Shown here: one piece after another, positions 16,293-47,758 of the stretch
Position numbering within the stretch: position 1 is the stretch's first letter
Layout of the letters: each line of letters starts with the position of its first letter
From: Candidatus Saccharimonadales bacterium
Lineage (GTDB): Bacteria > Patescibacteriota > Saccharimonadia > Saccharimonadales > EFPC-124
Direction of reading: 5' to 3'
Assembly (NCBI GenBank): GCA_035457485.1
Contig: DATIBO010000006.1
Span: 94,134 to 158,133, forward strand
DNA: 64,000 nucleotides
Translations under genes and position numbers: made by a program
Notes under the pieces: model-generated
Seen by the model: only the letters and a program-made list of their open reading frames with translations
The model's database searches: none
Told to the model about the DNA's origin: nothing

Positions 16293-16330
16293 TCTTGCAC
16301 TTCCACCCCCGTTTAGGCTAATCTTAGTGC

Positions 16331-33532: not shown

Positions 33533-33538
33533 GAATCC

Positions 33539-34384
33539 ATGGCCACTTATAAAGTACCTCAAGATGTTGAAGCCGAAGATAAGCTACTTGGACCTTTTAG
33601 CTTTAGACAGTTTGTCTATTTAGCAATTGCTCTTGGGGCAGCAGTAATCGCTTTCTTTTTGTTCAGGGTTTTTCCGCTTTTGTTTTTAATCCCGCTACCT
33701 ATAACCATTTTCTTTGGCGCTTTGGCTTTGCCACTACGAAAAGATCAGCCAATGGAAACATACTTATTGGCCATTGTGAGATTTAATCTAAAACCAAAGC
33801 TTCGTAAGTGGGATCCAGAGGGTGTAATTAGTTATGTAGAAATAATCGCGCCAAAGTTAATGGAGAAACAGCTTACAAAAGAATACGGCGCGGATTCGGC
33901 TCAAGAACGCTTAGACTATCTTGCGCGCGTTATGGACAGTCGTGGTTGGGCTCATAAAGGTGTGGAAACAACCACAAATCCAAGCGTAACTGCAACAGTA
34001 GCGGCCGAAGCTAGATCGACAGTTGATGTCCTAGACGAAGACCAGGCGTTGTCGCGAACCTTTAAGGAGCTTATGGACCAAAAAGCAGAAGAGCAAAGGC
34101 AGGCGGCGATTGAAATGATGAAAAAAGCGCAAACCGAACCCGCTCTGGCAACTCCGGTGAATATAAACTACAACCCTTACCCAACTTCAATGCATCAAAA
34201 AGTTATTCTGCCTGCCGGACAACAAAAGCCCGCACCTGTTGCGCAAAAACCTGCGATGACACCGCCAGTATCACCTGATATAATTAGACTCGCGAACAGC
34301 AATCTGAAGGTGAGTACAATTGCACACGAAATCCAGAAGCTTGAACTTAATAAGGGTGCAGTAGTAGATATTAAACTTCATTAA
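33539..34384 (+). CDS. VirB3/PrgI-like small membrane domain with C-terminal extension
   Basis: N-terminal ~90 aa: charged lead-in then two TM helices (FVYLAIALGAAVIAFFLF / LLFLIPLPITIFFGALAL), position directly upstream of VirB4 as in many T4SS. Confidence 0.35.
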   Translation: MATYKVPQDVEAEDKLLGPFSFRQFVYLAIALGAAVIAFFLFRVFPLLFLIPLPITIFFGALALPLRKDQPMETYLLAIVRFNLKPKLRKWDPEGVISYVEIIAPKLMEKQLTKEYGADSAQERLDYLARVMDSRGWAHKGVETTTNPSVTATVAAEARSTVDVLDEDQALSRTFKELMDQKAEEQRQAAIEMMKKAQTEPALATPVNINYNPYPTSMHQKVILPAGQQKPAPVAQKPAMTPPVSPDIIRLANSNLKVSTIAHEIQKLELNKGAVVDIKLH

Positions 34385-34406
34385 AAATACAGGGAGGGCT
34401 GGTTAA

Positions 34407-35285
34407 ATGCCACCCAACAATCAACAGACAGCTAATCAACAACCGGTTAATGCAACCCTCCCACAGGGTGCTTCACCTTTAGCGGCTCTTCCGCCAACTC
34501 CGGCGGGCAACATCGTGGCAGGTGGCTCACCCCAGGTAGCAAGTACGGGTAACAAACAAAAAAATCCGAATAGCGCGCAAAACAGCTTGCTCATCTCTGA
34601 ACTTCGCGATGGAATGGCCATATTAAACGATGGCACTATGCGCGCTGTAATTGCTTGCCGTTCGATTAACTTTGATCTTATGAGCTCACGCGAACGCGAA
34701 GCAGTTGAATTTTCTTATCAGCAGTTCTTAAACTCACTTTACTTTCCAATGCAAATATTTGTTCGATCCCAAAAAGTCGACATCGGCCCGTATCTTGAAC
34801 GCTTGGGTAAAATTCGCCGCGAACAAGACAACATGCTCCTTGGTGTTTTAATGGACGATTATGTCGACTTTATTGGTATTCTTGCGCAAGAAACCAACAT
34901 TATGGAAAAGAGCTTCTTTATAATAGTGCCTTACTACCCGGGCGGCGATGTTGGAAGCGCAGTCAATACTAGTAAGAACTTTTTAGCAAACTTGTTTTCA
35001 CCGCAGACCCAGCAGCGAATCAGAATCGACGAAAAAACTTATGCAAAAGCTGTCGATGAGCTTCGCAATCGCACCGATACGGTCATAAACGGACTGCTTC
35101 AAATTGGAATCCGTGCCGTCCGATTAAACACAAAAGAGCTAGGCGAACTATACTACAATGTCTACAACCCAGACACAGCTGTGCGCGAACCACTAGGTAA
35201 GTTCGAAAACCTAACTAGTGCTGCAGTCGTTACCAAGGGCGAAGGCAAAGCTCCGCAACCACACTTAGATAAGGAGGCGATGTAA
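34407..35285 (+). CDS. VirB4 N-terminal domain encoded as separate ORF (Q/P-rich disordered lead + VirB4 N-domain)
   Basis: Segment ELRDGMAILNDGTMRAVIACRSINFDLMSSREREAVEFSYQQFLNSLYFPMQIFVRSQKVD matches the N-terminal domain pattern of Gram-positive VirB4 (TrsE/PrgJ/TcpF); SD GGGAGGG upstream. Confidence 0.5.
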   Translation: MPPNNQQTANQQPVNATLPQGASPLAALPPTPAGNIVAGGSPQVASTGNKQKNPNSAQNSLLISELRDGMAILNDGTMRAVIACRSINFDLMSSREREAVEFSYQQFLNSLYFPMQIFVRSQKVDIGPYLERLGKIRREQDNMLLGVLMDDYVDFIGILAQETNIMEKSFFIIVPYYPGGDVGSAVNTSKNFLANLFSPQTQQRIRIDEKTYAKAVDELRNRTDTVINGLLQIGIRAVRLNTKELGELYYNVYNPDTAVREPLGKFENLTSAAVVTKGEGKAPQPHLDKEAM

Positions 35286-35286
35286 T

Positions 35287-37182
35287 ATGGCATTCGGTAA
35301 AAAACCTGATCCAATTGACTTAGCCCAAGCTCAACGCTACCGCGAGCAACAAGAAATCGAGCAAGAATTTTTGCGCGGTATAACAACTCTGCGCGACATC
35401 ATCGCGCCAAGCTCACTCGAAATCCAGAGTGGCTACTTTAGGCTTGGCACAAAATACGCTCGCACACTTTACGTTTATGGCTACCCGCGTCAAATCTTTA
35501 CTGGCTGGCTAAGTCCGATCATCAATATCGACGAAGTTATAGATGTAAGCATGTTTGTTTATCCAGTTGAAAGCCAGGTAGTTTTAAACAATTTGCGCAA
35601 AAAAGTAGGCCAGCTAGAAGCCAGTATTAGCATTAACGCTGAGCGCGGTAAGGTGCGCGATCCGGGCCTACAGGCTGCTATCCAAGACGCCGAGGAACTG
35701 CGTGACCAACTGCAAGTTGGTGCTGAACGCTTTTTTAGGTTTGGCTTGTATATTACAGTTTACGGTGACAGTTTAGATGAGCTGCAGTTTGTGCAACATA
35801 AGATCGAAACAATTCTAGGTCAGCAATTAGTGTTCAGTAAGGTTGCTAGCAGTCAAATGGAGCAAGGAATGAACAGTACGATTCCGCAAATGACCGACCA
35901 GCTACAGATTCGCCACAACATGAATACGGGCGCACTTAGCACAAGTTTTCCGTTTACAAGTGCCGACCTCACCCAAGAAAAAGGTGTGCTTTATGGAATC
36001 AACATGCATAATAACGGCCTTGTGATTTTTGATCGATTCAGTTTAGAGAACGCCAACATGGTGGTGTTTGCAAAATCTGGTGCCGGTAAATCTTTTGCGG
36101 TCAAGCTAGAGGCTTTGCGTAGCTTAATGATGGGTACCGAAGTAATTATCGTAGACCCAGAAAACGAATATCAGCGACTTTGCGATGCGGTAGGCGGAAG
36201 TTATGTTAATCTAAGTTTAAACTCGACCACTCGAATAAATCCATTTGATCTACCAAAAGTAGTTGAAAGCGAAGAGGCCGAGGACGCTCTACGTGCCAAT
36301 CTAATTAACTTACACGGGCTTTTGCGACTTATGATGGGTGGCGCACAAATGTTACCTGGTGGCGTAACTTTGCCAGCGCTCAGCCCAGTAGAAGAAGCTG
36401 ATCTTGATCAAGCTCTGATCGATACCTATGCCCGAGCAGGAATCACGAGCGACCCATTAACTCATACCGGGCAGCCGCCAACAATCAACGATCTTTACGA
36501 GACGCTATTACATATGGGCGGGAGTGGTCCGCAACTTGCACAACGGTTGCGAAAATATACAACTGGAACATTTGCCGGTATCTTTAGTCAGCAATCAAAT
36601 GTGGACATCAACAATAAAATGGTTGTTTTTAGCATCCGAGACCTAGAAGACGAGCTTCGCCCGGTTGCAATGTATATCGTTTTGAGCTACATCTGGAATA
36701 AAACACGCGCCGAGCGACGCAAGCGTTTATTAGTAGTTGATGAGGCTTGGCAGCTAATGAAATATGAAGACTCGGCAAACTTCTTATTCAGCCTCGCTAA
36801 GCGCGCAAGAAAATACTTTTTGGGTATGACCACCATAACTCAGGACGTTGAAGACTTTATGACCAGTAAAATGGGTCGTGCAATTGTGGCGAATGCCAGT
36901 ATGCAAATTCTACTTAAACAGTCCACTTCGGCAGTTGACGTTTTGGCGGATGTGTTTAAGCTAACCGAAGAAGAAAAAAAGCGTTTGGCTCAATTCCCGG
37001 TAGGGCAGGGGTTGTTCTTTGCCGGACCAAATCATGTGCACTTACAGATTATTGCTAGCCCAACTGAGACCGGCTTGATTACAACCAATCCTCAGCAGCT
37101 TCAACAGTTACAACAGCTTTATGCACAGCAACCTAACCCACAGCAACCAATACCAGGTCAAGGAGTAGAAGGTGCCCTATAA
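35287..37182 (+). CDS. virB4: VirB4/TraE-family T4SS ATPase (C-terminal ATPase portion)
   Basis: Walker A AKSGAGKSFAV, Walker B LLVVDEAWQLM, motif ITQDVEDF; SD AAGGAGG 11 nt upstream of ATG; starts 1 nt after stop of upstream N-domain ORF, different frame. Confidence 0.8.
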   Translation: MAFGKKPDPIDLAQAQRYREQQEIEQEFLRGITTLRDIIAPSSLEIQSGYFRLGTKYARTLYVYGYPRQIFTGWLSPIINIDEVIDVSMFVYPVESQVVLNNLRKKVGQLEASISINAERGKVRDPGLQAAIQDAEELRDQLQVGAERFFRFGLYITVYGDSLDELQFVQHKIETILGQQLVFSKVASSQMEQGMNSTIPQMTDQLQIRHNMNTGALSTSFPFTSADLTQEKGVLYGINMHNNGLVIFDRFSLENANMVVFAKSGAGKSFAVKLEALRSLMMGTEVIIVDPENEYQRLCDAVGGSYVNLSLNSTTRINPFDLPKVVESEEAEDALRANLINLHGLLRLMMGGAQMLPGGVTLPALSPVEEADLDQALIDTYARAGITSDPLTHTGQPPTINDLYETLLHMGGSGPQLAQRLRKYTTGTFAGIFSQQSNVDINNKMVVFSIRDLEDELRPVAMYIVLSYIWNKTRAERRKRLLVVDEAWQLMKYEDSANFLFSLAKRARKYFLGMTTITQDVEDFMTSKMGRAIVANASMQILLKQSTSAVDVLADVFKLTEEEKKRLAQFPVGQGLFFAGPNHVHLQIIASPTETGLITTNPQQLQQLQQLYAQQPNPQQPIPGQGVEGAL

Positions 37183-39820
37183 CGTTCCAACGGGAAACGA
37201 ACCAGACTACGAACCGGATTGGCGTTCAAGATTAAATAACTTTGAGGGCCAGCCACAAATACCTGAGGTCCAAGAGCAGGGCCGGCTTTCGCGTGCTGGT
37301 GAACGCATCGGTGACGAAGTAAGCTCACGAGCAGGCGATCTTGCTAGAAAAGGTATCGAAAAAGGCTTTAAAAAAGGCGCTGAACAAGGTGCTAGGACCG
37401 CTGCACAAGCTGGTGGCGAGGCCCTGGCTAACACGGCCGGATCGGCAATTGCTAGCGGGGCTACAGCCGGAACAGCCGAAACCGCGGGCGCATTAGGAGC
37501 TGCTGGTGCCGCCGGTGCTGCAGGTGCCGCGGGCACTGCGGGAACAGCGGGAGCAGCAGGAACGTTGGCTGCGGCGGAAGCGGGGATAGCAGCGGCGGGC
37601 GCCGCATCAGCACCCGAGACAATGGGAGCTGGTTTAGTTGTTGCTGGTGGAGCAATGGCCACTACCGCTGCAGCCGCAGCTACCCCAGTAGCCGTTAAAG
37701 CTGCAACTGGGGTAGATGTTTCGCCGAGTGGAGTTATAAAAGCAGCCACTGGCTCAAAAAGATCACTTTTAGAGACAATAAAAAGCCATAAAGTCATAAT
37801 TATAGCCGTAGCCGTTTTATCGCCACTATTACTTATTTTCGGAGTAGTGTTCTTGGCGTCGCCGTTTAAAGGCGATATCGCAACAAAATCTGTGGCAGAC
37901 AAAGCCTTTTCACCCATAAAAACAATTGTAGAGCTAAGAACTCGCACAATCTTAGCCGGCTATGTAATCGGCGGATCTAAAGCTAGCATTGAGGTCGGGT
38001 TGCCGCAAGCTGGCGGTAAAGCCGGTCAGCTATACACCGCCATGCGCGATTTAGGTTTCGAAGAAGTTATAAAAGATAAGTATTTGCTCGCATTTGAAAG
38101 AGGCAACGAAGCCGGAACCGTACGCGTTGTAAGCCGTGGAATTGGCCTGGGCGACGCAAACACAAACCTTGAGGCATTGGCACTTTTAAACAAAAGCACT
38201 GGGGTGAGAGGTGTTATTCAAAACGAAATGCACTCTTGGGATTGGGCGCAGCATAGCAAAATTGCACAACCAGCCAAGGCTCTTTATCAAAACCCACGAT
38301 TAAACATTCCTGGTGCCGACGAAGCTCAAAGCGGCGAACAGCTAAGCGAAGTTGCCAAATATCGCGTTTCGACCACAACTCAACCGACGGTCACAAACGT
38401 TGGCAGCGCAATGGGCTGTATGCTCGGCACAGGAGTTTGCAACCAAGAGAACGTTCAGCCCGACATAACCGCAAACTCAACCTTACAAGAGAACGAATCG
38501 AGTTCACTAGTAACCGCAACTCAAAAAGCCTTCAATGATAATCTTGAAACAATAAGCCCCGAAACCAACTACGAAGCTCCAACTTTACGCGACAAATCAA
38601 GGAGCAACCTAACAACCCAGCTAACACAAGCTAGTTTGCCACTTTTTGGTTGGCTGGATGTAGGAACAGTAACAGATTACGGCAGCACAGACCCTGCTTA
38701 CAAGGATCTCCCTGTGAATATGCGTCGCCAACAAGCCGGAAGCCTTTTCTTGATGTCGTGGATAGGGACCAGCCAGAGCACAGCCGAGGAAGTTAACTAC
38801 AAATCGGCCGGCATCATGGCAAAAAACTTTGTTGATATGGAAGACTCGCAAGCGTACAACTATATATCCTACGACGACACCAGCAGGGGTAAGCCGCTCG
38901 AAACTTACCAAAAAGTTAACAGCGCCGCCGAAAATCCAATGCAGACCTTCAAGGATTCGTGGTTTACCGAAAACTCCGAACTACAAAATACTTTTGGAAT
39001 TTTTGCCGCCTGGAATGCAATCCGAGACTTGCCGATCTTCGGTTCGATAATTGAACAGTTGGTTACGACAATGGTAAACAACCCGCTAATCAACATCGGT
39101 GGGGAGATAATTGCCAACTCTCCTTTAGTACTTTTACTAAAAAACTTCGGTCCGCAACCCGTTCAAGATTTACTAACATTCTTAACCGAACGCCCTTTAA
39201 GCGAAGTTATTGGCACGAGCTTCGGATTGTCTTCGGATATGTTAATTAACGAATGTGATATGTCTTTAAGGTCATTCAACTTCTTAAACTGCATGGTATC
39301 GGGCGCACAAGACCTATACGTAACCACCTGCGAACAAAACTTTGGTTGTGGCAACTTAAGCGAGCAGGAACTGCAAGAACTCTACGCCTACCGCGCCCAG
39401 GCCGATAAAGAAAACTTAGCCGCATTGCCATGGCAAGAAAGAATGTTCAGTTTAAATACCCCAGGTTCATTGGCGAGTGTAGCAGTTTTGCGATCACCAA
39501 TGCCTATAGATTCAACACAAAACATGGCCTCTTTTGCCAAGGGAATTGCCCGAGCAGTAGCCAGAATTCCAGACAACCTAGCGACAATTTTTGCAGGCAA
39601 AGCACTGGCTGCGGCCAACGATCCAAACAGTATTAGCGGCATAAATAACAATCAGGGCATTCCTCTGGGCACATTGCAAAACACCCAACTTTCGCCGCAA
39701 ATGCTACAAAACGACGGAACCTGCCCCGAAAAACAAGAAGGCGTAGAGGATGTTTGCTGGGCCGATAATGCCACAATCGACGGACTGCTTACTAAATACG
39801 TAACTTACAAATACTTATGA
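37172..39820 (+). CDS. large bitopic protein: Ala/Gly-rich cytoplasmic N-terminus (Gly-X-Y-like repeats), single TM, ~650-aa extracytoplasmic domain (T4SS-associated surface component). GTG start
   Basis: SD AAGGAG 6 nt before GTG; low-complexity (GCN)n DNA 37440..37700; TM IIIAVAVLSPLLLIFGVVFLA; no recognised fold in ectodomain. Confidence 0.5.
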   Translation: MPYNVPTGNEPDYEPDWRSRLNNFEGQPQIPEVQEQGRLSRAGERIGDEVSSRAGDLARKGIEKGFKKGAEQGARTAAQAGGEALANTAGSAIASGATAGTAETAGALGAAGAAGAAGAAGTAGTAGAAGTLAAAEAGIAAAGAASAPETMGAGLVVAGGAMATTAAAAATPVAVKAATGVDVSPSGVIKAATGSKRSLLETIKSHKVIIIAVAVLSPLLLIFGVVFLASPFKGDIATKSVADKAFSPIKTIVELRTRTILAGYVIGGSKASIEVGLPQAGGKAGQLYTAMRDLGFEEVIKDKYLLAFERGNEAGTVRVVSRGIGLGDANTNLEALALLNKSTGVRGVIQNEMHSWDWAQHSKIAQPAKALYQNPRLNIPGADEAQSGEQLSEVAKYRVSTTTQPTVTNVGSAMGCMLGTGVCNQENVQPDITANSTLQENESSSLVTATQKAFNDNLETISPETNYEAPTLRDKSRSNLTTQLTQASLPLFGWLDVGTVTDYGSTDPAYKDLPVNMRRQQAGSLFLMSWIGTSQSTAEEVNYKSAGIMAKNFVDMEDSQAYNYISYDDTSRGKPLETYQKVNSAAENPMQTFKDSWFTENSELQNTFGIFAAWNAIRDLPIFGSIIEQLVTTMVNNPLINIGGEIIANSPLVLLLKNFGPQPVQDLLTFLTERPLSEVIGTSFGLSSDMLINECDMSLRSFNFLNCMVSGAQDLYVTTCEQNFGCGNLSEQELQELYAYRAQADKENLAALPWQERMFSLNTPGSLASVAVLRSPMPIDSTQNMASFAKGIARAVARIPDNLATIFAGKALAAANDPNSISGINNNQGIPLGTLQNTQLSPQMLQNDGTCPEKQEGVEDVCWADNATIDGLLTKYVTYKYL

Positions 39821-41094
39821 ACAACTTAGCTAAACGATTTATCCTAATTTTACTGGCGGCAACACTACTTATCGCGAACGGTGCCAGCGAAGTCAGTGCT
39901 TATAACACTCCTCAAACTGTAGAGAGGGGAGGGCCGGCTTTTGAGGAAGGTTCGTGCAGCGCCACGCCGCAAACATCGGAACTTGAAGGCTTCAAGCTAC
40001 CGGCAACCAAAGGTTATATGGGCAATGAAGATCCAGTAGACGAAAACGGCAATCTTACAACCACCGGAGAGGGCATGGCTTACGGTAAGTTTGCAAAACT
40101 TGGCCAAAATTACCGTGACTTCTACATCACAATGCGGTGGACTACACATGAATGGTTCTGGGACGGCAGCGCCAGAGTGGCCGATCAGGCTCAAATTGCT
40201 TGGCTAAATGAAGCCCCACGAAAAGTTCTAGTAACCAATCCAAGATCAAACAGAAGTATTATTGCCGTTGTTATGGAATCTGGCCCAGCGCCATGGACGG
40301 GCGTAGACACTGAGCGAAATAACGATCCTAAGCAAGGCTGGCAACAGCCACAATTAGGAACACCTGCAGAGTATGGCGGTCGCGTTTCCGGGTTCCCGCC
40401 AGTGGCGGTCGAAGCTTTGCTCGCTCAGCAACGAACGGGTGGTCAAACTAATGGTGATGAGCTGCTTTATTCCTGGGCACCAGACCAAAACGCTGAGCCC
40501 GGACCTACGGACTTATCGGTTCAAAACTCGGACAGTACGGCAATTTGTGCTCCAACAGGTTTAGGTGTAAGCCCAGACGGTTTCGTATTCCCACTAATCA
40601 CAACAAAAACAGAACTCAAAAAAGGTGGCTGGAACCCTAATTGTGTTAACAAAGTTTCATCTATGGGTGCGCTAGGAACAGTCGTGAGAATACAAGGCCT
40701 CTGTCACCACGATTACTTAGCAGCAGACATTCTTGATCCAGTTGGAACTAAAGTTGTTGCCGTACGACCCGGCAGAGTTATTAGGGCGAACTCAGAGATT
40801 AGCTGCTTTAGCCCAAGTGTAACAATATTTAGCGACCCAGCTCTTGGCGGCGACGGTAACACATACTACACAACCCATATGGGGCAGCAAGGCAGGCCTA
40901 CCGAAGACACAATTGTGAATGCGGGCGATATTATTGGCGAAATTGGCGACCCGCACGGTTGCTTCCCACCACACTTGCACATAGACGTCAGTCCGATCCA
41001 AACGGGATTCCCGAGAAATAGCGGTGGAACACACGGCCCTTTACTCGATCCTCAGCCGGCATTAAAAGCTTCTTACCAAACATTACCGGAGTAA
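39817..41094 (+). CDS. secreted M23-family metallopeptidase (peptidoglycan hydrolase)
   Basis: Signal peptide; C-terminal M23 motifs HHDYLAADI and HLHIDV with TYYTTHMGQ between them; ATGA overlap with upstream. Confidence 0.65.
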   Translation: MNNLAKRFILILLAATLLIANGASEVSAYNTPQTVERGGPAFEEGSCSATPQTSELEGFKLPATKGYMGNEDPVDENGNLTTTGEGMAYGKFAKLGQNYRDFYITMRWTTHEWFWDGSARVADQAQIAWLNEAPRKVLVTNPRSNRSIIAVVMESGPAPWTGVDTERNNDPKQGWQQPQLGTPAEYGGRVSGFPPVAVEALLAQQRTGGQTNGDELLYSWAPDQNAEPGPTDLSVQNSDSTAICAPTGLGVSPDGFVFPLITTKTELKKGGWNPNCVNKVSSMGALGTVVRIQGLCHHDYLAADILDPVGTKVVAVRPGRVIRANSEISCFSPSVTIFSDPALGGDGNTYYTTHMGQQGRPTEDTIVNAGDIIGEIGDPHGCFPPHLHIDVSPIQTGFPRNSGGTHGPLLDPQPALKASYQTLPE

Positions 41095-41097
41095 AAA

Positions 41098-42300
41098 ATG
41101 AGAAGAAAAATAATAATTTTCGTCATCGTAGCAGTGGTCCTTGTAGCAATCGGTTTTTTCGCATATAACTTTTTCACCACAGAACAAGTGAACATAAAAA
41201 GCAATAGCCAAAACGCCAAGGTATCTATCTACACATTGCAAAACCAGGTTGTTGACTCTAAAAACGCGCCATACAGCACCCGACTTAAGCCAGGTATATA
41301 CTCGGTAGTTGTTACCGATAACCAAAAAGAGACGCGATCGATTTTTACGTTAAAACAAGGTACCCCTGTAGACCTAACACTCGATTTAGTTGATGTAAAG
41401 TCTCCAAAAAAAATAGCACCCTATTCCTCAAAATACATTTTTGCAGATGAAAACTTTTTGAATTTTATACGCAAGGACGTTAATCAATTAGATAGATTAA
41501 CTTTTGGCGAGAAGTACCTTAAAGAGTTGTCTCAGGGATCATACTCTCAAGCATATTGGGCAAACGCCGATCAAGCCATATTAACTGATACAGCTAATAA
41601 AAGCCACTATTACGACTTTGGGACAATTTCTCCTCTAGGCTATAAAATCACTAACCCAGGTACGATCTCGTTTTTAGGTGATTCACTGGCTTACATAGAA
41701 CAAAAGGTCGTCTACATAAGGCCTACAATCACAGCGGCTCCTGTGGTCGAAGTTCCTGTTAGATTCCTTCAACCGCAATTATCACTTGGTCCAAATAATC
41801 AATTTGTCGTCTTTGAAACAGGCGTGTTTGTGGATGAGACTGAAGGCGAAGAAGGGCAGGCGCAATCCGAATTGAGTAACGCAACTCCCGAAATTTATTC
41901 CGGAAACGAAAGGCTTCAAAAGCAAAGTGATGCGTTGAAAAACTACGTAATCGACGGGGCGACTTGGTCGCCCGATGGCCAGAAACTCGCCTTTAGTGCA
42001 GGCGATGGTATTTATATAATGGATATAAATACATCTTCGATTAGACAACTCTACCTAAGTTATACAACTCATCCACAAAGTATAAAGTGGCTCGACGAAC
42101 AAACATTGATATATTTTCTAGACCAAGGAATATGGAAAATTACGCTAAACGAAACGCCAACATGGAATCTGTTGGCGAAAGTGGAGGGCAGCTTGGGTTG
42201 GAGTGCGCCGCTTTCACTATCTCCCTCAAAAAAGGAGATCTATTACTCATCAGATGAACTACAATCCAGTAATGATGCAGTATACCAGATCGATTTATAA
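41098..42300 (+). CDS. membrane-anchored TolB-like beta-propeller (PD40 repeat) protein
   Basis: N-terminal TM IIIFVIVAVVLVAIGFFAY; PD40-like WSPDGQKLAFSAGDGIYIMD. Confidence 0.5.
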   Translation: MRRKIIIFVIVAVVLVAIGFFAYNFFTTEQVNIKSNSQNAKVSIYTLQNQVVDSKNAPYSTRLKPGIYSVVVTDNQKETRSIFTLKQGTPVDLTLDLVDVKSPKKIAPYSSKYIFADENFLNFIRKDVNQLDRLTFGEKYLKELSQGSYSQAYWANADQAILTDTANKSHYYDFGTISPLGYKITNPGTISFLGDSLAYIEQKVVYIRPTITAAPVVEVPVRFLQPQLSLGPNNQFVVFETGVFVDETEGEEGQAQSELSNATPEIYSGNERLQKQSDALKNYVIDGATWSPDGQKLAFSAGDGIYIMDINTSSIRQLYLSYTTHPQSIKWLDEQTLIYFLDQGIWKITLNETPTWNLLAKVEGSLGWSAPLSLSPSKKEIYYSSDELQSSNDAVYQIDL

Positions 42301-42351
42301 TTTCTAAGAATAGAAGGGGCAGAGGTGGCTTTGGCCACGTACCCCTTATCC

Positions 42352-43914
42352 CTATGCTGGAAGCATAGTACAAATTTTTCTTCGGAGGTCAGGACTGATA
42401 TTACGACAAACGTAACTATCGCCCGTTAATCCACTCGACCCCCCCATATAGTAGACCCATCTACCATCCTTCCATTCAAGAGCAATGGAATATCCGTCTC
42501 CCCAAGTACCATAATCCTCGAGGTAAGAGTTGGCGTCGGCAACTATCCAGTTGTCGCTGCACCAAACCCGAAAAACTTCAGCATTACCTGGAAGTTGAGC
42601 AATCGCCTTAACCTCTTTTGCAGTCAAACATGGTACAATTCGAGTTACTTTGATTTGCAAAGTCCCGACGATCTGCATCCGCACCCCCTCCAGCGCGCTC
42701 ATCACCGTTGTCCATCCGAGTTTTACACCCTCGACGACGGCAAAAAAGCGGCCAAAGAACTTTTCGGTGAAGGTCATTGGATCGGCGAAGCCGCCCATTA
42801 CCCTCAACACGGTTTCGCCGCATTTGCTTGCCACGATTTCGTAAAAATCGTAGAAGCTCATTTTGGCGATGTCTTTGCCGAGCTTGGCAGCGTTACCCAG
42901 GCAACTCACGACATCTTGGATGTCGAGCAGCGCCCTGGCTCGCTTGACCGAAGTTGTTAGGTCCTCGCCGGTGGCAATACTAGCCAAGAACTTCAGCGAT
43001 CCCCAAATAGCTTCGGCCAAAAACACGTTAGGCTCAGCTCGCAACTCCACAGTTGCCGGCAGATTACTGGCCGTTAACTGCGCATCAAGCACGGCTCGTC
43101 GCGGCAAAAATGCCTGAGTTGCCTTGTTGTTGAACAGCTGCTTTGCCAGCTCAATGGTGTAGCGCTCGTCGTCGGTGGTCTCGCCGCCAACATCGAACTT
43201 AACACCCTTCGTGGCTGCAACCGACAAAATGTACTCGACGCGATTACTAACGCTGAGCATCGCTGTTTTGCCGGCGGCGTTCAGGCAGGCTCGAATCGGA
43301 CTGTCGGGTTTGGTCGTCGACCAGCCTGTCATACCGCTGATTTTGACCTTGCCGAGCTCGTTGGTCTTGACCTCGGTTTTACAGTCACCATCTTGCGGCG
43401 TACCTAGCAGAGACGGGCTGACGATTCCGCGCAGTGGCTCGTCGAGCAAGTATGACACTGTCTTGGGCGACAGATGCGGAACTTGCGCCTTGAGCACGTC
43501 ACCCTCGACGATTGCCGGCAAAAGCCGCCAGCCATCGCCATTGGGCGCGGGAGTGTAGAGCAGCGCTTGATCTGGCCGAACGCCAGCGGGCAAAAACTTG
43601 CCCTGCAGCTTCAGCTCGATCGTAAGCGGTTTAAGCGGTTGTGCTCCGCCCTCAAAACTGAGGTCGAACGTGCTCGAAGCCTTGAACAGGCTCGAAGCCG
43701 GCTTGTAGCTCTTAGGCTCGATCATGGTCAGGCGTGTGCCAACCTTAACCGCGCCATCCGGCACATGTACGGTAAGTTCGCCGAGAGTGTACGTGCCACT
43801 CTTATCGATCTTAACGGTGTGCTTCGCCGGCTCGTCACTACGAGTGCAGGCCGCACCAGCAGCCAGCATCAGCATCGAACAGGCGAGCGCAATTGTGCGC
43901 TTAATCTTAACCAC
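42352..43914 (-). CDS. hypothetical lipoprotein encoded by a ~62% GC single-gene island
   Basis: Lipobox LAAGAAC after basic n-region; 520 aa; GC about 62% versus about 43% in flanks; multiple stop-free antisense ORFs. Confidence 0.55.
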   Translation of the reverse strand: MVKIKRTIALACSMLMLAAGAACTRSDEPAKHTVKIDKSGTYTLGELTVHVPDGAVKVGTRLTMIEPKSYKPASSLFKASSTFDLSFEGGAQPLKPLTIELKLQGKFLPAGVRPDQALLYTPAPNGDGWRLLPAIVEGDVLKAQVPHLSPKTVSYLLDEPLRGIVSPSLLGTPQDGDCKTEVKTNELGKVKISGMTGWSTTKPDSPIRACLNAAGKTAMLSVSNRVEYILSVAATKGVKFDVGGETTDDERYTIELAKQLFNNKATQAFLPRRAVLDAQLTASNLPATVELRAEPNVFLAEAIWGSLKFLASIATGEDLTTSVKRARALLDIQDVVSCLGNAAKLGKDIAKMSFYDFYEIVASKCGETVLRVMGGFADPMTFTEKFFGRFFAVVEGVKLGWTTVMSALEGVRMQIVGTLQIKVTRIVPCLTAKEVKAIAQLPGNAEVFRVWCSDNWIVADANSYLEDYGTWGDGYSIALEWKDGRWVYYMGGSSGLTGDSYVCRNISPDLRRKICTMLPA

Positions 43915-43965
43915 TCCTTACGGGCTTAGGATTTTTACGGACACCATACTTTTAACATACTTTGG

Positions 43966-45039
43966 TTAAGCTTGCAACTTTTCGGTGCTAATTATTTTAT
44001 GTTCTGCCAAAAAACTTTTCTCAACGACATCAGCATCCGTGGTAGTTATAAACGTTTGGTAAGTCTTGGTAATATCCGTCAAAGCTCTACGGCGAGTGCT
44101 ATCGAGCTCCGAAAACACGTCGTCGAGCAATAGTATTGGCGGATTTTCGTTTTGCTTGGCTAAAAGCTTGAGTTCAATTATTTTAAGCGCTAAAAGCATG
44201 CTACGAACCTCACCACGCGACGCAGCAGCCGCAGCGGGCTTGTTATTGATTTTTACCGCAAAATCGTCACGGTGGGGTCCAAACGACGTAAAACCGCGAT
44301 GTAAGTCGCTTGCCGCATTGCGCGACAACGCATTCAGCAGGTTTGCTTGATAATTTTCGGCAGGTAGTGAACTTTTGTATTCAATTTGTAAATCAGTTTT
44401 TACGCCCGCGATCGAAGAATAAACTTCTCCAAAGACTTTATTTAAATCGTTAATCAGCGATACGCGTCGCTCTACAATCACAGCTCCCAAATCAGCTAGG
44501 CGAACATCCCATGCAAAAAGTTGATCTTCGACCTGGCTCAAGCCGAATTTATTTTTAAGCAACGAGTTGCGCTGTTGTAAAACCCGTTCGTATTGATGTT
44601 TTGTCCAGGTAAAATCAGGGTGAATTCGCGCAAGCAGGTTGTCTAAAAAATCACGGCGCCCAGTAGGCGAGGAGCGCAAAAGCCGCAAATGATCTGGCTC
44701 AAACAAAACTACGGGTAATTTGTACTGGTGGGTTAGTCGAGCTTTTTTAGATCCATCAATATCAAACTGTTTTTCGAGTTTTTCAGGCTGAACTTTGTAA
44801 ACAATTGTGCGTTTTTGATCGTTATATACTCCTTCGATTTTCAACCAAGGCTCTCCATGCCTAATCATATCTCGATCCACACCCCTAAAGGAACTTCCAG
44901 CCGAAAGCACATAAAGCGCCTCTAGTAGATTGGTTTTTCCACTACCATTTGGTCCAACAATAACAGTTACGCCCGGCGAAAACTCGACGTCGTAGTTTGT
45001 GTATGATCTAAAATTGTGCAGCGAAACCGAACCAAACAT
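43966..45039 (-). CDS. recF: DNA replication and repair protein RecF
   Basis: Walker A GPNGSGKTNLLEA, SMC-like signature, D-loop LLLDDVFSELD. Confidence 0.9.
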   Translation of the reverse strand: MFGSVSLHNFRSYTNYDVEFSPGVTVIVGPNGSGKTNLLEALYVLSAGSSFRGVDRDMIRHGEPWLKIEGVYNDQKRTIVYKVQPEKLEKQFDIDGSKKARLTHQYKLPVVLFEPDHLRLLRSSPTGRRDFLDNLLARIHPDFTWTKHQYERVLQQRNSLLKNKFGLSQVEDQLFAWDVRLADLGAVIVERRVSLINDLNKVFGEVYSSIAGVKTDLQIEYKSSLPAENYQANLLNALSRNAASDLHRGFTSFGPHRDDFAVKINNKPAAAAASRGEVRSMLLALKIIELKLLAKQNENPPILLLDDVFSELDSTRRRALTDITKTYQTFITTTDADVVEKSFLAEHKIISTEKLQA

Positions 45040-46130
45040 TAGCTTTTAAGCGGCATTATAACGTGTTTATAGCCCGCGTCGGGGTTGTCTGCGGCGGTTA
45101 CTATGCAGGGCGCCAATTTTCCGCTAAAGCGAAACTCCACGGTCTTAGCGTCTACACACCCCAGCGCTTCGAGCAGATAGCGTGAGTTAAGTGTTACGCT
45201 ACCTTCGGCACTGACTTTTGCCTCAGCCTCACTCGTATTCTCACCTAGTTGTGAGGCGATCGAATGAATACTTAATTTATCAGATTCAGCTTTCAAGGTT
45301 ACACTGCCGCCAGATTCTCGCGCAAATAAGCTTGCGACTTTAGTAATTCGCGTGAACTCATCCTTGGGTAAGGTTACTTTACTCTCGCTTTCGCTTGGAA
45401 TAAGCGCGCGATAGTCGGGGAACGTACCGTCTATTAAACGTGAAGTTATCTCCACATCATCTAGTAAAATTCTTACCTGGTTTTCTCCGAACACGAACTT
45501 AACATCTGCGCCATCGTCACTCATAATTCTAATTACATCATTCATAGCTACAACTGGAATAATCGCGCTAATCTCTAGTGGAGAACTGATTAACTTTCGC
45601 TCAGCCAATCTGTAGCCATCTGTTGCTGCAAAATAAATACTTCCCTCAAAGCTGTGACAGTAAACACCAGTTAATACTGGGCGGGTGTCGTCGGCCGATG
45701 CTACAACCACTGTTTGCTGAATTGCACGTTTTAAATCCCCAGCCGGAACACTTAAAACGTTCTTTTCCTCAATTGTGGGTAATTCTGGAAATTCATCAGG
45801 AGTCATGCCGTTGATCGTAGATTTATAGGCGCCGCACTTAATGTGAAGTTTTGCACCGTCCGCCTCGAGTTCAACATTACCTTTAGGCAAGTTCATTACA
45901 AATTCAGTTGTGAGTTTTGCAGGAACTGTAACGCTGCCCTCGGTTTCAATTTTACTTCCTACACGTTGTGTTATGGCTAATTCCAGATTCGTCGCCGCAA
46001 GTAGTAGACGATTATTTTGAGTTCGAAGCAAAATATTGTTCAAAATAGGTAGGGGTGTTTTACCCGAAGCAACTCTGCCGACAGTTTGCAAAGCTTTGCT
46101 TAGGTTTTCTTGTGTGACTGTAAGCTTCAT
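45039..46130 (-). CDS. dnaN: DNA polymerase III subunit beta (sliding clamp)
   Basis: Three-domain ~360 aa clamp; conserved start MKLTVTQENLSKAL; synteny dnaA-dnaN-recF. Confidence 0.9.
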   Translation of the reverse strand: MKLTVTQENLSKALQTVGRVASGKTPLPILNNILLRTQNNRLLLAATNLELAITQRVGSKIETEGSVTVPAKLTTEFVMNLPKGNVELEADGAKLHIKCGAYKSTINGMTPDEFPELPTIEEKNVLSVPAGDLKRAIQQTVVVASADDTRPVLTGVYCHSFEGSIYFAATDGYRLAERKLISSPLEISAIIPVVAMNDVIRIMSDDGADVKFVFGENQVRILLDDVEITSRLIDGTFPDYRALIPSESESKVTLPKDEFTRITKVASLFARESGGSVTLKAESDKLSIHSIASQLGENTSEAEAKVSAEGSVTLNSRYLLEALGCVDAKTVEFRFSGKLAPCIVTAADNPDAGYKHVIMPLKS

Positions 46131-46387
46131 TCTTTCTTCTTTCTTATTATATTTATATATAAGTAGTAATAGTAGTAATAGGGCGTGTGCAAAGTGGGTA
46201 AAAACCCTGAACTTTATCTGTTAAAGTTCGCCCAAGGCTGTGTAAAAATTGTGTGCAAACGTGTGTAAGTTGTGTGTGAATTATGTGGGTGTTTATGTGT
46301 TTGGTGCTAGTAGGGTTGTGGTGGGTTGTGGAACTTGTGGATGAACACCCCACCAAGTTTCCATAGTTTTTGAACAGGTTTTGCACA
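46131..46387. promoter_or_regulatory. oriC part 2: dnaA-dnaN spacer with AT-rich DUE-like stretch and TGTGGA-type DnaA-box-like repeats
   Basis: 46141..46182 is an AT-rich stretch TTCTTATTATATTTATATATAAGTAGTAATAGTAGTAATAG; it is followed by TTGTGGATGA (46335..46344), GTTGTGGAAC, GGTTGTGGTGG and several TGTGTG repeats. Confidence 0.5.
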
Positions 46388-47758
46388 CTACGCATACAAT
46401 TTGTCCCTAATCTCGGTGATTTGTTGCCGAATTACATAATCAAGCTTTGAAGCTTTTTGGATTTTTTCGACCGAATGAATCGCAGTAGTGTGATCTTTGC
46501 GACCTAGTTCCGATGCGATTTTAGGGAAACTCAAGTGCAGCTCACTGCGTAAAAGATACATGGCGATCTGCCGTGGCACAACAATGTGTTTGTCACGTTT
46601 AGGGCTAGTTATGTCCGCAGATTCGATCTGGAAGTGCTTTGCAGTTTTTTCTATGATTTGCCTGGCGGTTACGTGGTGTGGGCGAGTCGTGCGCGCGCTG
46701 CTAAATAAAGCTTTGGCAGTATCTACATTCGGCTCTAAGCGTTGAAGCTCGCAGTGTGCGATCAGCTGGTTTAGGGCGCCCTCCAGCTCGCGGACGTTGT
46801 TTTGAATGTTGGCGGCCAAATACTCCACGGTATCGCGGGGTAGACTAACATTACTTTGGCTAGCTTTGGTTTGTAAAATTGCGCAACGTGTTTCGAAATC
46901 CGGCGATTGGATGTCGATCGCCATACCCCATTCAAAGCGCGAGCGTAAGCGATCTTCTAATGTAGGGATTGCTTTAGGCGGCTTGTCGGAACTGATGATA
47001 ATCTGTTTGTTTGCCTGGTGCAATGCGTTAAAGGTGTGAAAAAACTCTTCCTGTGTACGCTCTTTGCCGGCTATAAACTGAATATCGTCGATTATCAATA
47101 GGTCAACATTGCGATATCGGTTAGAGAAACCCTTCTTTTTGAACCTAATGCTGTCCAAAAATTCATTAACGAAAGTCTCACTCGAAATGTAAAGTACGCG
47201 TGTACCAGGGTTTTTGCGGCAGATTTCATTGCCAACAGCTTGTATTAAGTGGGTTTTGCCTAGTCCCACACCCCCGTATAAAAATAGAGGGTTGTATTTT
47301 GTGCCTGGAGTGGCCGCTACCGCTTGACAAGCAGTGTAGGCGAGTTCGTTGCTTGATCCAACGATAAAATTTTCAAAGTTGTATTTAGGGTTAAGACCCG
47401 AACTCCCGTTTTGGCTACTAGTAAAAGTGGTGGACTCTGCGCGAGTTTCGGCTACAACTGGAGCCTGCATGAGTAGTGGTTTCTCGGTTTGAGCTACGGC
47501 TTTTTTCCGTTTTGTCTCAGAGATTATGGTGTAGCTAACTTTATTTACTTCGACTCCATTTTTTTGCAAAACGTCCAAAATTAGGCTGTTAAATCTAGCC
47601 TCCATTTGTTCTTTTGCAAAGATGTTCACAACCCCAATGACAATCTCGCCACCCTCGTTAGAAAGCATCTCTGATGTTTTGAACCAAGTAATAAAGTTGG
47701 CGCGCGACACGCTTAACTCAATTTCACCTAAAACGGTTTGCCACAGTGCGTTTTTCAT
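46388..47758 (-). CDS. dnaA: chromosomal replication initiator DnaA
   Basis: AAA+ Walker A GGVGLGKTHL, Walker B LLIIDDIQF, C-terminal DNA-binding domain with basic loop and signature helix. Confidence 0.95.
   Translation of the reverse strand: MKNALWQTVLGEIELSVSRANFITWFKTSEMLSNEGGEIVIGVVNIFAKEQMEARFNSLILDVLQKNGVEVNKVSYTIISETKRKKAVAQTEKPLLMQAPVVAETRAESTTFTSSQNGSSGLNPKYNFENFIVGSSNELAYTACQAVAATPGTKYNPLFLYGGVGLGKTHLIQAVGNEICRKNPGTRVLYISSETFVNEFLDSIRFKKKGFSNRYRNVDLLIIDDIQFIAGKERTQEEFFHTFNALHQANKQIIISSDKPPKAIPTLEDRLRSRFEWGMAIDIQSPDFETRCAILQTKASQSNVSLPRDTVEYLAANIQNNVRELEGALNQLIAHCELQRLEPNVDTAKALFSSARTTRPHHVTARQIIEKTAKHFQIESADITSPKRDKHIVVPRQIAMYLLRSELHLSFPKIASELGRKDHTTAIHSVEKIQKASKLDYVIRQQITEIRDKLYA

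What the first reader, a model, noticed from the sequence alone, without database searches (positions are those of the whole stretch)
42340..43920. Second ~62% GC single-gene island: 520-aa lipoprotein wedged between the T4SS-like operon and recF/oriC
The ORF 42352..43914 (minus) has a lipobox (LAAGAAC) and ~62% GC against ~43% flanks. The boundaries coincide with the ORF ends. A nested hairpin (GGGG..GTGGC-TTTG-GCCAC..CCCC) sits at its 3' end, and an abrupt AT-rich 50 bp precedes recF.

Two compositionally identical islands in one window, both single genes on the minus strand, suggest a common high-GC donor, plausibly the actinobacterial host of an epibiont.

This island lies adjacent to the host-interaction (T4SS-like) locus. 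That makes a role at the cell surface or host interface attractive, but this is speculative.
Basis: partly seen in the sequence, partly recalled or inferred. Interest (0 to 1): 0.7.

Follow-up and report, generated by a model that had tools for sequence, protein, structure and literature searches.

The report
Self-cleaving surface lipoprotein, not recent import
The GC-rich gene beside recF encodes a membrane-tethered surface protein with a predicted self-cleaving (ZU5-type) domain; it sits in an old, fast-changing slot next to the type IV secretion genes of Saccharimonadales epibionts and is not a fresh import from the host.

Summary
The ORF 42352..43914 (-) is real and encodes a 520-aa lipoprotein. 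It is a compositional outlier, but overall GC is 54.4%, not 62%; only GC3 is 61.8% (background 0.413 +/- 0.040, z = 5.2).

It is not a recently wedged-in island. Relatives of 29-58% identity occupy the same recF/T4SS-operon slot in at least eight Saccharimonadales lineages. Slot occupancy is 0 (Southlakia ML1), 1 or 3 copies. Every copy is GC3-richer than its neighbours. There are no insertion scars, and its promoter overlaps the end of recF.

Slot alleles are about 31-40% identical regardless of host relatedness. For example, L001 and L014 share 75-92% identity in core proteins but 31% in the slot protein.

More distant relatives are mostly of high-GC type, and named ones come from Actinomycetota (Dactylosporangium, Actinomadura, Lentzea). 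An ancient link to the host phylum is therefore plausible. The cause of the persistent GC excess is unresolved.

The parts
42352..43914 (-). Gene for a 520-aa exported lipoprotein of an unnamed family (the 'slot gene'). The start is ambiguous within the first 4 codons: GTG at 43914, or ATT at codon 4.
   Evidence: ORF. Six close homologs and 214 representatives at E<1e-3. GC3 0.618, z = 5.2. The SD AAGGAG abuts the GTG, and codon 4 has 8-nt spacing.
43846..43914 (-). Signal peptide with lipobox (residues 1-23, lipidated Cys23)
   Evidence: Sequence MVKIKRTIALACSMLMLAAGAA-C. A22/C23 are at least 90% conserved in alignment A3. Other family members have an N-terminal TM anchor instead.
43447..43827 (-). 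ZU5-superfamily beta-sandwich domain (residues 30-156)
43468..43476 (-). H147-L148-S149, the predicted autoproteolysis site (cleavage between L148 and S149)
   Evidence: Motif column over 153 sequences: HLS 98, HFS 24, HLT 3, HFT 2. Ser/Thr occupies the nucleophile position in 135/135. In the model it lies in the loop between strands 140-145 and 151-156 at the C-terminal edge of the domain. Motif definitions come from PMC3210808 and PMC3321182.
43039..43389 (-). Second beta domain (residues 176-292) with conserved C178 and C210
   Evidence: pLDDT 92-95. C178 and C210 are invariant in A2 and each is present in 120 of 153 aligned sequences. Foldseek aligns residues ~30-300 to ZU5-ZU5/UPA tandems.
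42667..43032 (-). Helical region (residues 295-416) with conserved C338 and C365
   Evidence: Secondary structure and pLDDT 67-91; conserved Cys. The armadillo-repeat hits here are a short-motif artefact.
42373..42660 (-). Variable C-terminal domain (residues 419-514, tail type 1). It is an alpha+beta domain with three conserved Cys and has GC3 near background.
43915..43990 (-). The gene's own promoter-like region and leader: TTGCAA (overlapping the last recF codons), an extended -10-like element, the GTCCG leader motif and the SD
   Evidence: Orthologous upstream regions share this layout. GTCCG lies at -27 to -38 in 7 loci, but only 2 of 54 window genes have it within 70 nt upstream. The simple sigma-70 scan did not call it.
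42300..42355 (.). Hairpin between the convergent stop codons, probably a shared terminator
   Evidence: dG -24.6 kcal/mol, z = -3.3. The T-run rule of the simple scan did not call it.
43966..47758 (-). recF, dnaN and dnaA: the conserved left border of the slot, beside the replication origin
   Evidence: ORFs; Pfam annotation of the identical contig; cumulative GC-skew minimum at about 45.5-46 kb.
30951..42300 (+). T4SS-like operon (PrgI/VirB3-like, TraC-like, VirB4, an 882-aa protein, an M23 peptidase, a 400-aa propeller-like protein): the conserved right border of the slot
   Evidence: Pfam hits. The same operon flanks the slot in L001, L013, L014, L015 and L017. Literature: PMC12102498, PMC10633639.

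Best explanation
The ORF is a real, long-resident gene of Saccharimonadales (Saccharibacteria/TM7). It belongs to an unnamed family of exported proteins tethered to the cell membrane by an N-terminal lipid anchor, or in other members by a transmembrane helix.

Shown:
- The family occupies a conserved but highly variable slot between recF and the convergent end of the T4SS-like operon, a few kb from the replication origin.
- The slot holds 0, 1 or 3 copies.
- Alleles are deeply diverged irrespective of host relatedness.
- Every copy is GC3-richer than its genome.
- The first domain after the anchor is a ZU5-superfamily beta-sandwich with a near-invariant H-[LF]-[ST] motif at its C-terminal edge.
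- The C-terminal ~100-aa domain is exchangeable.

Inferred mechanism:
- After Sec export and lipidation of Cys23, the ZU5 domain cuts its own chain between L148 and S149 by an N-O acyl shift, as in PIDD, the NLRP1/CARD8 FIIND and GAIN domains.
- This leaves a lipid-anchored stub (residues 24-148) that holds the 372-residue C-terminal fragment non-covalently through the strand that follows the cut.
- That fragment comprises the second beta domain, the disulfide-stabilised helical region and the variable C-terminal domain. It is thereby displayed on the epibiont surface as a releasable ectodomain.
- Its variability suggests a role in contact with the environment or the host cell, as an accessory rather than a core part of the neighbouring T4SS.

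Inferred history:
- The family, or its ZU5-plus-body core, was exchanged long ago with high-GC Actinomycetota, where the wider superfamily is concentrated.
- It then diversified and was swapped or sorted among Saccharimonadales.
- Its GC-richness is therefore a family trait and not the scar of a recent insertion.
For: Gene and composition.

Lineage: a GTDB Saccharimonadales MAG carries a homolog.

Synteny recF / gene / T4SS operon in independent assemblies:
- L001/L002, L003, L006, L013, L014 and L015, L017.
- The slot is empty in Southlakia ML1.
- There are three tandem paralogs in L015.

GC3 excess in every locus.

Discordant divergence: L001-L014 have DnaN 87%, RecF 75% and VirB4 92% identity, but the slot protein is 31% identical.

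No insertion hallmarks. A conserved own promoter and leader overlaps the recF end.

ZU5 assignment:
- Foldseek.
- Model mean pLDDT 86.
- Profile versus PDB sequences, E 8.6e-11.
- Pfam ZU5 in relatives, best E 3.9e-7.

Motif conservation.

Literature:
- Motif position and chemistry: PMC3210808, PMC3321182.
- N-terminal ZU5 autopeptidases in exported bacterial surface proteins: PMC3482391.

Variable tails.

Actinomycetota members: Dactylosporangium, Actinomadura, Lentzea. The distant relatives have a high-GC amino-acid bias.
Against: - Cleavage is predicted, not observed. Ankyrin, UNC5 and ZO-1 ZU5 domains do not cleave.
- The sequence alignments to solved ZU5 domains stop before the HLS motif. 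Equivalence of HLS with the known cleavage site therefore rests on position in the fold and on conservation.
- Zhang et al. describe a C-terminal CxH thiol motif for the superfamily, which is not what is seen here.
- The function of the released ectodomain is unknown. No domain beyond ZU5 has a significant match.
- If residence is ancient, amelioration should have erased the GC3 excess. It has not, and I have no tested explanation.
- The direction of the Actinomycetota-Saccharimonadales exchange is not established. The NJ tree has no support values and very long branches.
- Most family members have no taxonomic label. Their origin is inferred from amino-acid composition only.
Confidence: 0.6

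Rival explanations
1. Recent single-gene horizontal transfer from the actinobacterial host into this genome, inserted between the T4SS operon and recF.
For: - GC3 is 5 sd above the window's genes.
- Family members exist in Actinomycetota.
- One member on a 71%-GC contig is as similar to the window protein (37%) as the syntenic Saccharimonadales copies are.
Against: - The same slot is occupied in at least 8 lineages, including distant ones.
- The closest relatives (51-58%) are slot genes of related Saccharimonadales with RecF 83% identical.
- Gene GC is 54%, against 67-71% in the actinobacterial copies.
- There are no repeats, tRNA or integrase at the borders.
- The promoter is interleaved with the recF end and conserved in orthologs.
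Confidence: 0.05
2. Cassette replacement among Saccharimonadales. The slot allele was imported by natural transformation and homologous recombination, using the conserved recF and T4SS flanks, from a relative with a GC-richer genome. The GC mismatch reflects the donor epibiont, not the host.
For: - L001 and L014 are close in core genes but have 31%-identical slot proteins, and the gene is inverted in L014.
- The slot holds 0-3 copies.
- Allele GC of 54-58% equals or slightly exceeds the genome GC of other Saccharimonadales (51-54%).
- Natural competence with homologous recombination is documented in Saccharibacteria (PMC10633639).
- The C-terminal domain has a different GC3 from the body in 4 loci, which suggests mosaicism.
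Against: - The GC3 excess is positive in every lineage examined, including the GC-richest. Random exchange should give both signs.
- W and L003 share an allele lineage (52%) along with RecF at 83%. This allele has therefore been inherited since their ancestor, yet it remains GC-rich in both.
- Differential loss from an ancestral multi-copy array, as in L015, explains the discordance equally well.
Confidence: 0.25
3. The GC excess is maintained by a process acting on the gene itself. This could be GC-biased gene conversion in a recombination hot spot, or selection on synonymous sites. It would not be a donor signature.
For: - The excess is mainly at third positions and is seen in all lineages, whatever the genome GC.
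- The locus shows signs of frequent rearrangement: copy number, inversion, tail swapping.
Against: - There is no direct test here.
- Copies with GC3 of 0.88-0.91 in 49-58% GC contigs (L004, L008, L009) look more like fresh imports from true high-GC genomes than like gBGC products.
- The neighbouring variable T4SS genes show no such excess.
Confidence: 0.2
4. It is a polymorphic toxin or effector, with the ZU5 domain releasing a variable C-terminal toxin, possibly delivered through the adjacent T4SS.
For: - N-terminal ZU5 autopeptidases are a described feature of exported polymorphic toxins (PMC3482391).
- The family has at least 28 alternative C-terminal domains and tandem paralogs with different tails.
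- It is adjacent to a T4SS that is essential for epibiotic growth.
Against: - No tail matches a known toxin domain.
- There is no candidate immunity gene downstream. The stop codon is followed by a hairpin and a convergent gene.
- There are no RHS or filamentous repeats.
- The lipobox indicates Sec/Lgt export and membrane retention, not T4SS delivery.
- The slot is empty in Southlakia, where the T4SS is essential.
- There are no PADLOC hits.
Confidence: 0.1
5. The ZU5-like domain does not cleave. It is a binding or scaffold module, as in ankyrin, UNC5 and ZO-1, and the protein is a plain anchored lipoprotein.
For: - The best sequence and structure matches are to non-cleaving ankyrin ZU5 domains.
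- UNC5b has Leu at the P1-equivalent position without cleaving (PMC3210808).
Against: - H-[LF]-[ST] is conserved in 127/136 aligned relatives, with Ser/Thr in 135/135, while mean column identity is only 10-25%.
- HL|S/T is the cleaving GAIN motif and HF|S is the PIDD motif.
Confidence: 0.2

Closest known systems
ZU5 autopeptidase domains at the N-terminus of exported bacterial polymorphic toxins and other surface proteins (Zhang et al. 2012, Biol Direct, PMC3482391)
   Same: - Sec-exported bacterial protein with the ZU5-superfamily domain placed right after the N-terminal export or anchor signal.
- Variable downstream payload.
- Proposed role: releasing the protein at the cell surface.
   Different: - No RHS, SpvB or beta-propeller modules.
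- No recognisable toxin domain and no immunity gene.
- Lipoprotein anchor.
- A conserved 260-aa beta-plus-helical body between the ZU5 domain and the variable tail.
- The motif is H-L-S, not the CxH thiol motif described in that paper.
ZU5-UPA / FIIND of PIDD, NLRP1 and CARD8
   Same: - A second beta domain follows.
- An H/S-[FL]-S motif at the C-terminal edge of ZU5, just before a long strand.
- The fragments are expected to stay associated after cleavage.
   Different: - Those proteins are eukaryotic, cytosolic signalling proteins with death-fold domains.
- Here the protein is extracytoplasmic and lipid-anchored, with P1 Leu instead of Phe.
- No residue-level alignment of the motif was obtained.
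GAIN domain (GPS motif) of adhesion GPCRs and polycystins
   Same: - Extracellular and membrane-tethered.
- H-L-[ST] motif in a turn between the last strands.
- Nearby disulfides.
- A non-covalent heterodimer after cleavage.
   Different: - No alpha-helical subdomain A before the beta-sandwich.
- No 7TM partner.
- The orientation is reversed: here the anchor is N-terminal to the cut.
Saccharimonadia T4SS-like locus next to dnaA (Wang et al. 2023, Cell, PMC10633639; Quinonero-Coronel et al. 2025, PMC12102498)
   Same: The gene lies at the distal end of exactly this locus, in the origin-proximal arrangement those papers describe.
   Different: - The gene is not among the described T4SS components.
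- It is absent from the slot in the genetically studied strain Southlakia epibionticum ML1, so its fitness contribution is untested.

Membership tests
ZU5 superfamily (Pfam PF00791; ankyrin, UNC5, PIDD, FIIND) | Sequence-profile similarity to ZU5 domains | tested here: met
   - The N-domain profile A5 matches ankyrin-1 ZU5A-ZU5B (3ud1_A) at E 8.6e-11, ankyrin-3 at 2e-9, ankyrin-2 at 2.6e-9 and ZO-1 ZU5 at 0.005.
- Pfam ZU5 is matched by 7/72 distant relatives (best E 3.9e-7) and 9/55 close ones (best E 0.011).
- The window protein alone gives no Pfam hit.
ZU5 superfamily (Pfam PF00791; ankyrin, UNC5, PIDD, FIIND) | ZU5 beta-sandwich fold | tested here: met
   [not shown]
Autoproteolytic ZU5/GPS/Nup98-type domains | H/S-[FL]-[ST] motif at the C-terminal edge of the sandwich, in a loop before the last long strand | tested here: met
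   - H147-L148-S149 lies between strands 140-145 and 151-156.
- H-[LF]-[ST] occurs in 127/136 aligned relatives, with Ser/Thr in 135/135.
- Motif definitions come from PMC3210808 and PMC3321182.
- Residue-level superposition on a cleaving homolog was not possible with these tools.
Autoproteolytic ZU5/GPS/Nup98-type domains | Actual self-cleavage into two associated fragments | not testable with these tools
   This needs protein chemistry: SDS-PAGE or mass spectrometry of wild type against S149A.
Bacterial lipoproteins (Lgt/LspA substrates) | Basic n-region, hydrophobic h-region and a lipobox [LVI..][AST..][GAS]-C within the first ~35 residues | tested here: met
   - KIKR n-region, h-region TIALACSMLMLAAG, then A-A-C23.
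- The Cys is conserved in 66 of 111 sequences aligned at that column. The others have a TM anchor.
- No dedicated predictor (SignalP/LipoP) was available.
- The presence of lgt/lspA in this genome was not checked.
Polymorphic toxin systems | C-terminal toxin domain of a known or demonstrable toxic family | tested here: not met
   Ten representative tails gave no significant Pfam match. There were no toxin families among the hits for 55 members.
Polymorphic toxin systems | Immunity gene immediately downstream of the toxin gene | tested here: not met
   In the window the stop codon is followed by a hairpin and a convergent T4SS-operon gene. No consistent small downstream gene appears across loci.
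Polymorphic toxin systems | Conserved N-terminal region with alternative C-terminal domains, and cassette-like paralogs | tested here: met
   There are at least 28 tail clusters on a conserved body. L015 paralogs are 66% identical in the body but carry different tails.
Recently acquired genomic island | Absent from the same site in relatives; mobility hallmarks at the borders (direct repeats, tRNA, integrase) | tested here: not met
   - The site is occupied in at least 8 lineages.
- No flanking repeats beyond chance-size matches and no tRNA nearby.
- No viral-contig relatives.
- One studied relative, Southlakia ML1, does have an empty site.
Core T4SS component (VirB8-like) | Significant VirB8/NTF2-like fold or sequence match, and co-occurrence with every T4SS locus | tested here: not met
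   - The gene is absent from the Southlakia T4SS locus.
- It is unlinked to a T4SS in L008 and in Actinomadura.

The most novel reading that the evidence does not exclude
The recF/T4SS slot encodes a host-interaction determinant that is shared and repeatedly exchanged between Saccharimonadales epibionts and their actinobacterial hosts.

In this reading the protein is a lipid-anchored, ZU5-self-cleaved surface protein. Its swappable C-terminal domain sets which host envelope is recognised, or is shed onto the host on contact. Its persistent GC excess records continuing gene flow from high-GC hosts into a recombination hot spot beside the origin.
Probability: 0.12. Interest if true: 0.8.

Novelty: new member of a known kind. 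Interest (0 to 1): 0.5.

Why it matters
Saccharibacteria are obligate epibionts of Actinomycetota. What decides host range and attachment is an open question. The T4SS-like locus beside the origin is essential for epibiotic growth, but its accessory genes are undescribed.

This analysis turns an anonymous 'GC island' into a concrete, testable object. It is a family of membrane-tethered surface proteins with a predicted self-cleaving ZU5 module and an exchangeable C-terminal domain. The family sits in a hypervariable slot at the end of that locus and has relatives in the host phylum.

It gives a candidate for strain-specific surface variation. Saccharibacteria are now genetically tractable, so the gene can be deleted or swapped.

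It is also a caution for compositional island-calling. Here the GC excess is an old, family-wide trait in a syntenic gene and not evidence of recent transfer, and its persistence remains unexplained.

Tried and rejected
- Pfam, NCBIfam and PADLOC on the whole protein gave nothing.
- The PDB sequence hits to designed armadillo repeat proteins come from a short LPAxVxLxxxPN-like motif multiplied by identical repeats. The region is beta-strand plus helix in the model, so I rejected them as spurious.
- The word-indexed homology search with the 55-sequence alignment and with the Actinomadura protein returned nothing new.
- The metagenome scan found only three short fragments, and the first attempt with A2 failed.
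- The viral-contig scan found no relatives.
- The afdb50 fold library was unavailable.
- I tried to align the HLS motif to a solved cleaving ZU5/FIIND by sequence. The alignments reached only ankyrin, ZO-1 and UNC5 and stopped before the motif.
- I considered that island 1 (3853-4914) is related to the target. hhalign gave probability 0.2%.
- The literature search for reported host-derived GC-rich genes in Saccharibacteria found nothing specific.
Full report
**1. The observation**

The ORF at 42352..43914 on the minus strand exists. It is 520 codons long from a GTG and begins with a typical lipoprotein signal: MVKIKRTIALACSMLMLAAGAA-C23.

Its composition was misread. Overall GC is 54.4%, and the 62% figure applies only to third codon positions: GC1 0.560, GC2 0.453, GC3 0.618. 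The flanks are 41-43% GC and the window is 44.5%.

Against 51 other long ORFs of the window (GC3 0.413 +/- 0.040, maximum 0.530), the gene is a clear outlier, with z = 5.2 for GC3 and 3.5 for GC.

The boundary on the recF side is abrupt. The other is not: GC declines inside the gene, and the last 100 codons have GC3 of 0.46-0.54, close to background.

The hairpin at the 3' end is real (dG -24.6 kcal/mol, z = -3.3). It lies between the stop codons of two convergent genes, so it is most simply a shared terminator.

The window contains three GC3 outliers, not two: 3853-4914, 21294-22481 and this gene. They differ in composition. The first encodes an unrelated protein with no signal peptide. The second is an MFS transporter next to a tRNA-Ser.

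An assembly of public run SRR25158331 reproduces 21.5 kb across both junctions at 100% identity.

**2. Where the gene lives**

The neighbours are recF, dnaN and dnaA on one side. The cumulative GC-skew minimum lies at about 46 kb.

On the other side is a convergent operon with PrgI/VirB3-like, TraC-like and VirB4 genes, a large exported protein and an M23 peptidase. This is the origin-proximal, relaxase-less, MPF-FATA-like T4SS locus described for Saccharimonadia. It is essential for epibiotic growth in Southlakia epibionticum (PMC12102498; PMC10633639).

A GTDB genome scan labelled one related locus as a Candidatus Saccharimonadales MAG.

**3. It is not a recent insertion**

The word-indexed search found only six clusters. 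An exhaustive profile search found 214 representatives at E<1e-3, of which 61 are at E<1e-30.

Wherever enough contig was available for Saccharimonadales members, the gene lies in the same slot between recF and the end of the T4SS operon:

| Locus | Identity to the window protein |
|---|---|
| L003 | 51% |
| L006 | 58%; split into two ORFs |
| L001/L002 | 35% |
| L013 | 35% |
| L014 | 32%; gene inverted |
| L015 | 32%; three tandem paralogs |
| L017 | 29%; membrane-anchored form on a 575-kb contig |

Exceptions exist. Southlakia ML1 has an empty slot: recF at 2737-3741 directly abuts the convergent SEML1_0004. The Saccharimonadales MAG L008 carries the gene elsewhere.

There are no flanking repeats above chance size, and no tRNA or integrase. 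No relatives occur on viral contigs.

The gene brings its own promoter-like region: TTGCAA, about 17 nt, an extended -10, and a GTCCG leader motif. This layout recurs upstream of the orthologs. In the window the -35 element overlaps the last recF codons.

**4. The GC excess is a family trait**

In every locus the slot gene is GC3-richer than its neighbours:

| Locus | Slot gene GC3 | Neighbours' GC3 |
|---|---|---|
| window | 0.62 | 0.41 |
| L003 | 0.74 | about 0.42 |
| L017 | 0.72 | about 0.45 |
| L015 | 0.59-0.63 | about 0.48 |
| L014 | 0.66 | about 0.57 |
| L013 | 0.71 | about 0.62 |
| L001 | 0.69 | 0.44-0.64 |
| L004 | 0.89 | mostly about 0.4-0.6 |
| L008 | 0.91 | mostly about 0.6-0.7 |
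| L009 | 0.88 | mostly about 0.5-0.75 |

On a true high-GC contig (L005, 71% GC) and in Actinomadura hibisca (73% GC) the homolog is compositionally native or slightly low.

**5. The slot holds deeply diverged alleles**

L001 and L014 are close relatives by their flanking genes: DnaA 84%, DnaN 87%, RecF 75%, VirB4 92%. Their slot proteins are 31% identical.

Across all pairs the slot protein is 31-40% identical, while RecF ranges from 40 to 75%. Only window-L003 (RecF 83%) share a recognisably common allele, at 52%.

With 0-3 copies and one inversion, this indicates allele replacement or differential loss from a multi-copy ancestor, not simple orthology.

**6. What the protein is**

With a 55-sequence alignment, AlphaFold reaches mean pLDDT 86. 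The model shows five parts:
- the anchor;
- a beta-sandwich (residues 30-156);
- a second beta domain (176-292);
- a helical region (295-416);
- a small alpha+beta domain (419-514).

A profile of the N-terminal domain alone matches ankyrin ZU5 sequences at E 8.6e-11. Pfam ZU5 is the only family hit recurrently by relatives, with a best E of 3.9e-7.

At the C-terminal edge of this domain lies H147-L148-S149, in the loop before strand 151-156. Across 153 sequences whose mean column identity is 10-25%, this column reads HLS 98, HFS 24, HLT 3 and HFT 2. Ser/Thr occupies the nucleophile position in all 135 sequences that have a residue there.

HF|S is the PIDD cleavage motif, 'immediately after each ZU5 domain' (PMC3210808). 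HL|T/S, in the kinked turn between the last two strands with the Leu buried, is the GAIN motif (PMC3321182).

Zhang et al. 2012 grouped ZU5, GPS and Nup98 autopeptidases into one superfamily. They reported N-terminally placed ZU5 domains in exported bacterial polymorphic toxins and other surface proteins, proposing release at the cell surface (PMC3482391).

I therefore predict self-cleavage between L148 and S149. This would leave a lipid-anchored stub holding a 372-residue ectodomain non-covalently. The prediction is an inference. The best-matching solved ZU5 domains do not cleave, and the sequence alignments stop before the motif.

**7. Modular C-terminus**

Many relatives match the family profile only to about position 425.

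I cut 99 full-body members after residue 418 and clustered the tails. This gave at least 28 types: the window type has 42 members and a second type has 15.

Paralogs T1 and T2 of L015 are 66% identical in the body but carry different tails. None of ten representative tails matches a known domain.

The tail of the window gene, and of L013, L014 and L015, has background-like GC3, unlike the body. That fits a mosaic history.

There is no toxin domain and no immunity gene, so I do not file the family as a polymorphic toxin, although it shares that architecture.

**8. Origin**

Named members come from Dactylosporangium thailandense, Actinomadura hibisca and Lentzea.

The 86 more distant representatives mostly share the ZU5 domain and part of the body. 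Some carry other exported modules instead, such as PQQ or Kelch propellers, FN3, CHAP and PknH_C. They have a strongly high-GC amino-acid bias:

| Protein set | GARP/FYMINK |
|---|---|
| Distant representatives (median) | 2.3 |
| Close family (median) | 1.36 |
| Native window proteins | about 0.9 |
| Actinomadura proteins | mostly 2.6-5.2 |

In an unsupported NJ tree, high-GC members nest at two or more places among slot genes.

In Actinomadura the gene sits among TIR-WD40 and STAND-like genes and has no T4SS nearby.

An old exchange with the host phylum is thus plausible. Its direction, the number of events and the reason the GC excess persists are not resolved. The candidates are continuing gene flow, cassette swapping from GC-richer epibionts, and biased gene conversion.

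**9. Verdict**

The finding is a real compositional outlier with a wrong number and a mostly wrong explanation.

The gene is an old, syntenic, fast-diversifying resident of the Saccharimonadales T4SS/origin neighbourhood. It encodes a membrane-tethered surface protein with a predicted ZU5 self-cleavage module.

At the domain level it is a new member of a known kind. The family, its slot and its persistent GC excess appear undescribed in the literature I could search.

Interest is moderate. It is a good candidate for a strain-variable host-interface protein in a system that has recently become genetically tractable.

Noticed in passing
window 3853-4914 (-): This is the strongest compositional outlier of the window (GC 59.8%, GC3 0.70, z = 7.4). 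It encodes a 353-aa protein with no signal peptide, an acidic/Ala-rich middle and a coiled-coil-like C-terminus. It has no Pfam match and is unrelated to the target.
   Followed up: partly
window 21294-22481 (-) and tRNA-Ser 22633-22724: A third GC3 outlier (0.596, z = 4.6) encodes an MFS transporter and lies immediately beside a tRNA-Ser gene, a classic island integration context. Three further tRNAs lie at 24.4-26.9 kb.
   Followed up: no
window 43915-43990 (-); same region in L003, L006, L013, L004, L008, L009: A conserved promoter-like layout (TTGCAA, ~17 nt, extended -10) and a GTCCG leader motif 27-38 nt before the start travel with the gene, even where its genomic context differs. GTCCG is under-represented in the window (47 observed against ~87 expected) and lies upstream of only 2 of 54 genes.
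   Followed up: partly
window 43903-43920 (-): The AAGGAG Shine-Dalgarno-like motif directly abuts the GTG at 43914, as it does in L003 and L006. Codon 4 (ATT/ATT/ATC) has the usual 8-nt spacing, so translation may start at a non-canonical codon. The public gene call starts at Met14 and would remove the basic n-region of the signal peptide.
   Followed up: partly
L015 6142-11379: Three tandem paralogs of the family fill the slot (48-66% identical). They are membrane-anchored, not lipidated. The two closest carry different C-terminal domain types.
   Followed up: yes
L014 10001-11587: The slot gene is inverted relative to all other loci, so it runs co-directionally with the T4SS operon. L014 is otherwise the closest relative of L001 by core genes.
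   Followed up: partly
L006 430-1934: The slot gene is split into a 318-aa N-terminal ORF and a 168-aa C-terminal ORF. This is a frameshift or pseudogene, or an assembly error.
   Followed up: no
window 39817-42300 and the equivalent genes in L001, L013, L015, L017: The distal genes of the T4SS operon vary between lineages. The peptidoglycan hydrolase is M23 in the window, VanY in L001 and L013 (L013 also has an SLT), Phage_lysozyme2 in L015, and CHAP plus C39_2 in L017. The last gene also differs (propeller-like, PEGA or unknown).
   Followed up: no
L016 (Actinomadura hibisca BCRO01000031.1) 1520-16301: The actinobacterial homolog lies between two TIR-domain/WD40 proteins, a RyR-domain protein, a catalase and a STAND-TPR protein. 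This neighbourhood resembles a conflict or immunity locus, and there is no T4SS.
   Followed up: no
[not shown]
   Followed up: partly
L013 9217-9663: A small gene with a weak PycTM match sits between recF and the slot gene in this lineage only.
   Followed up: no
L008 4342-4869: In the Saccharimonadales MAG contig that carries the displaced copy, another ORF has GC3 of 0.85 against about 0.63. This suggests the contig is a compositional mosaic.
   Followed up: no
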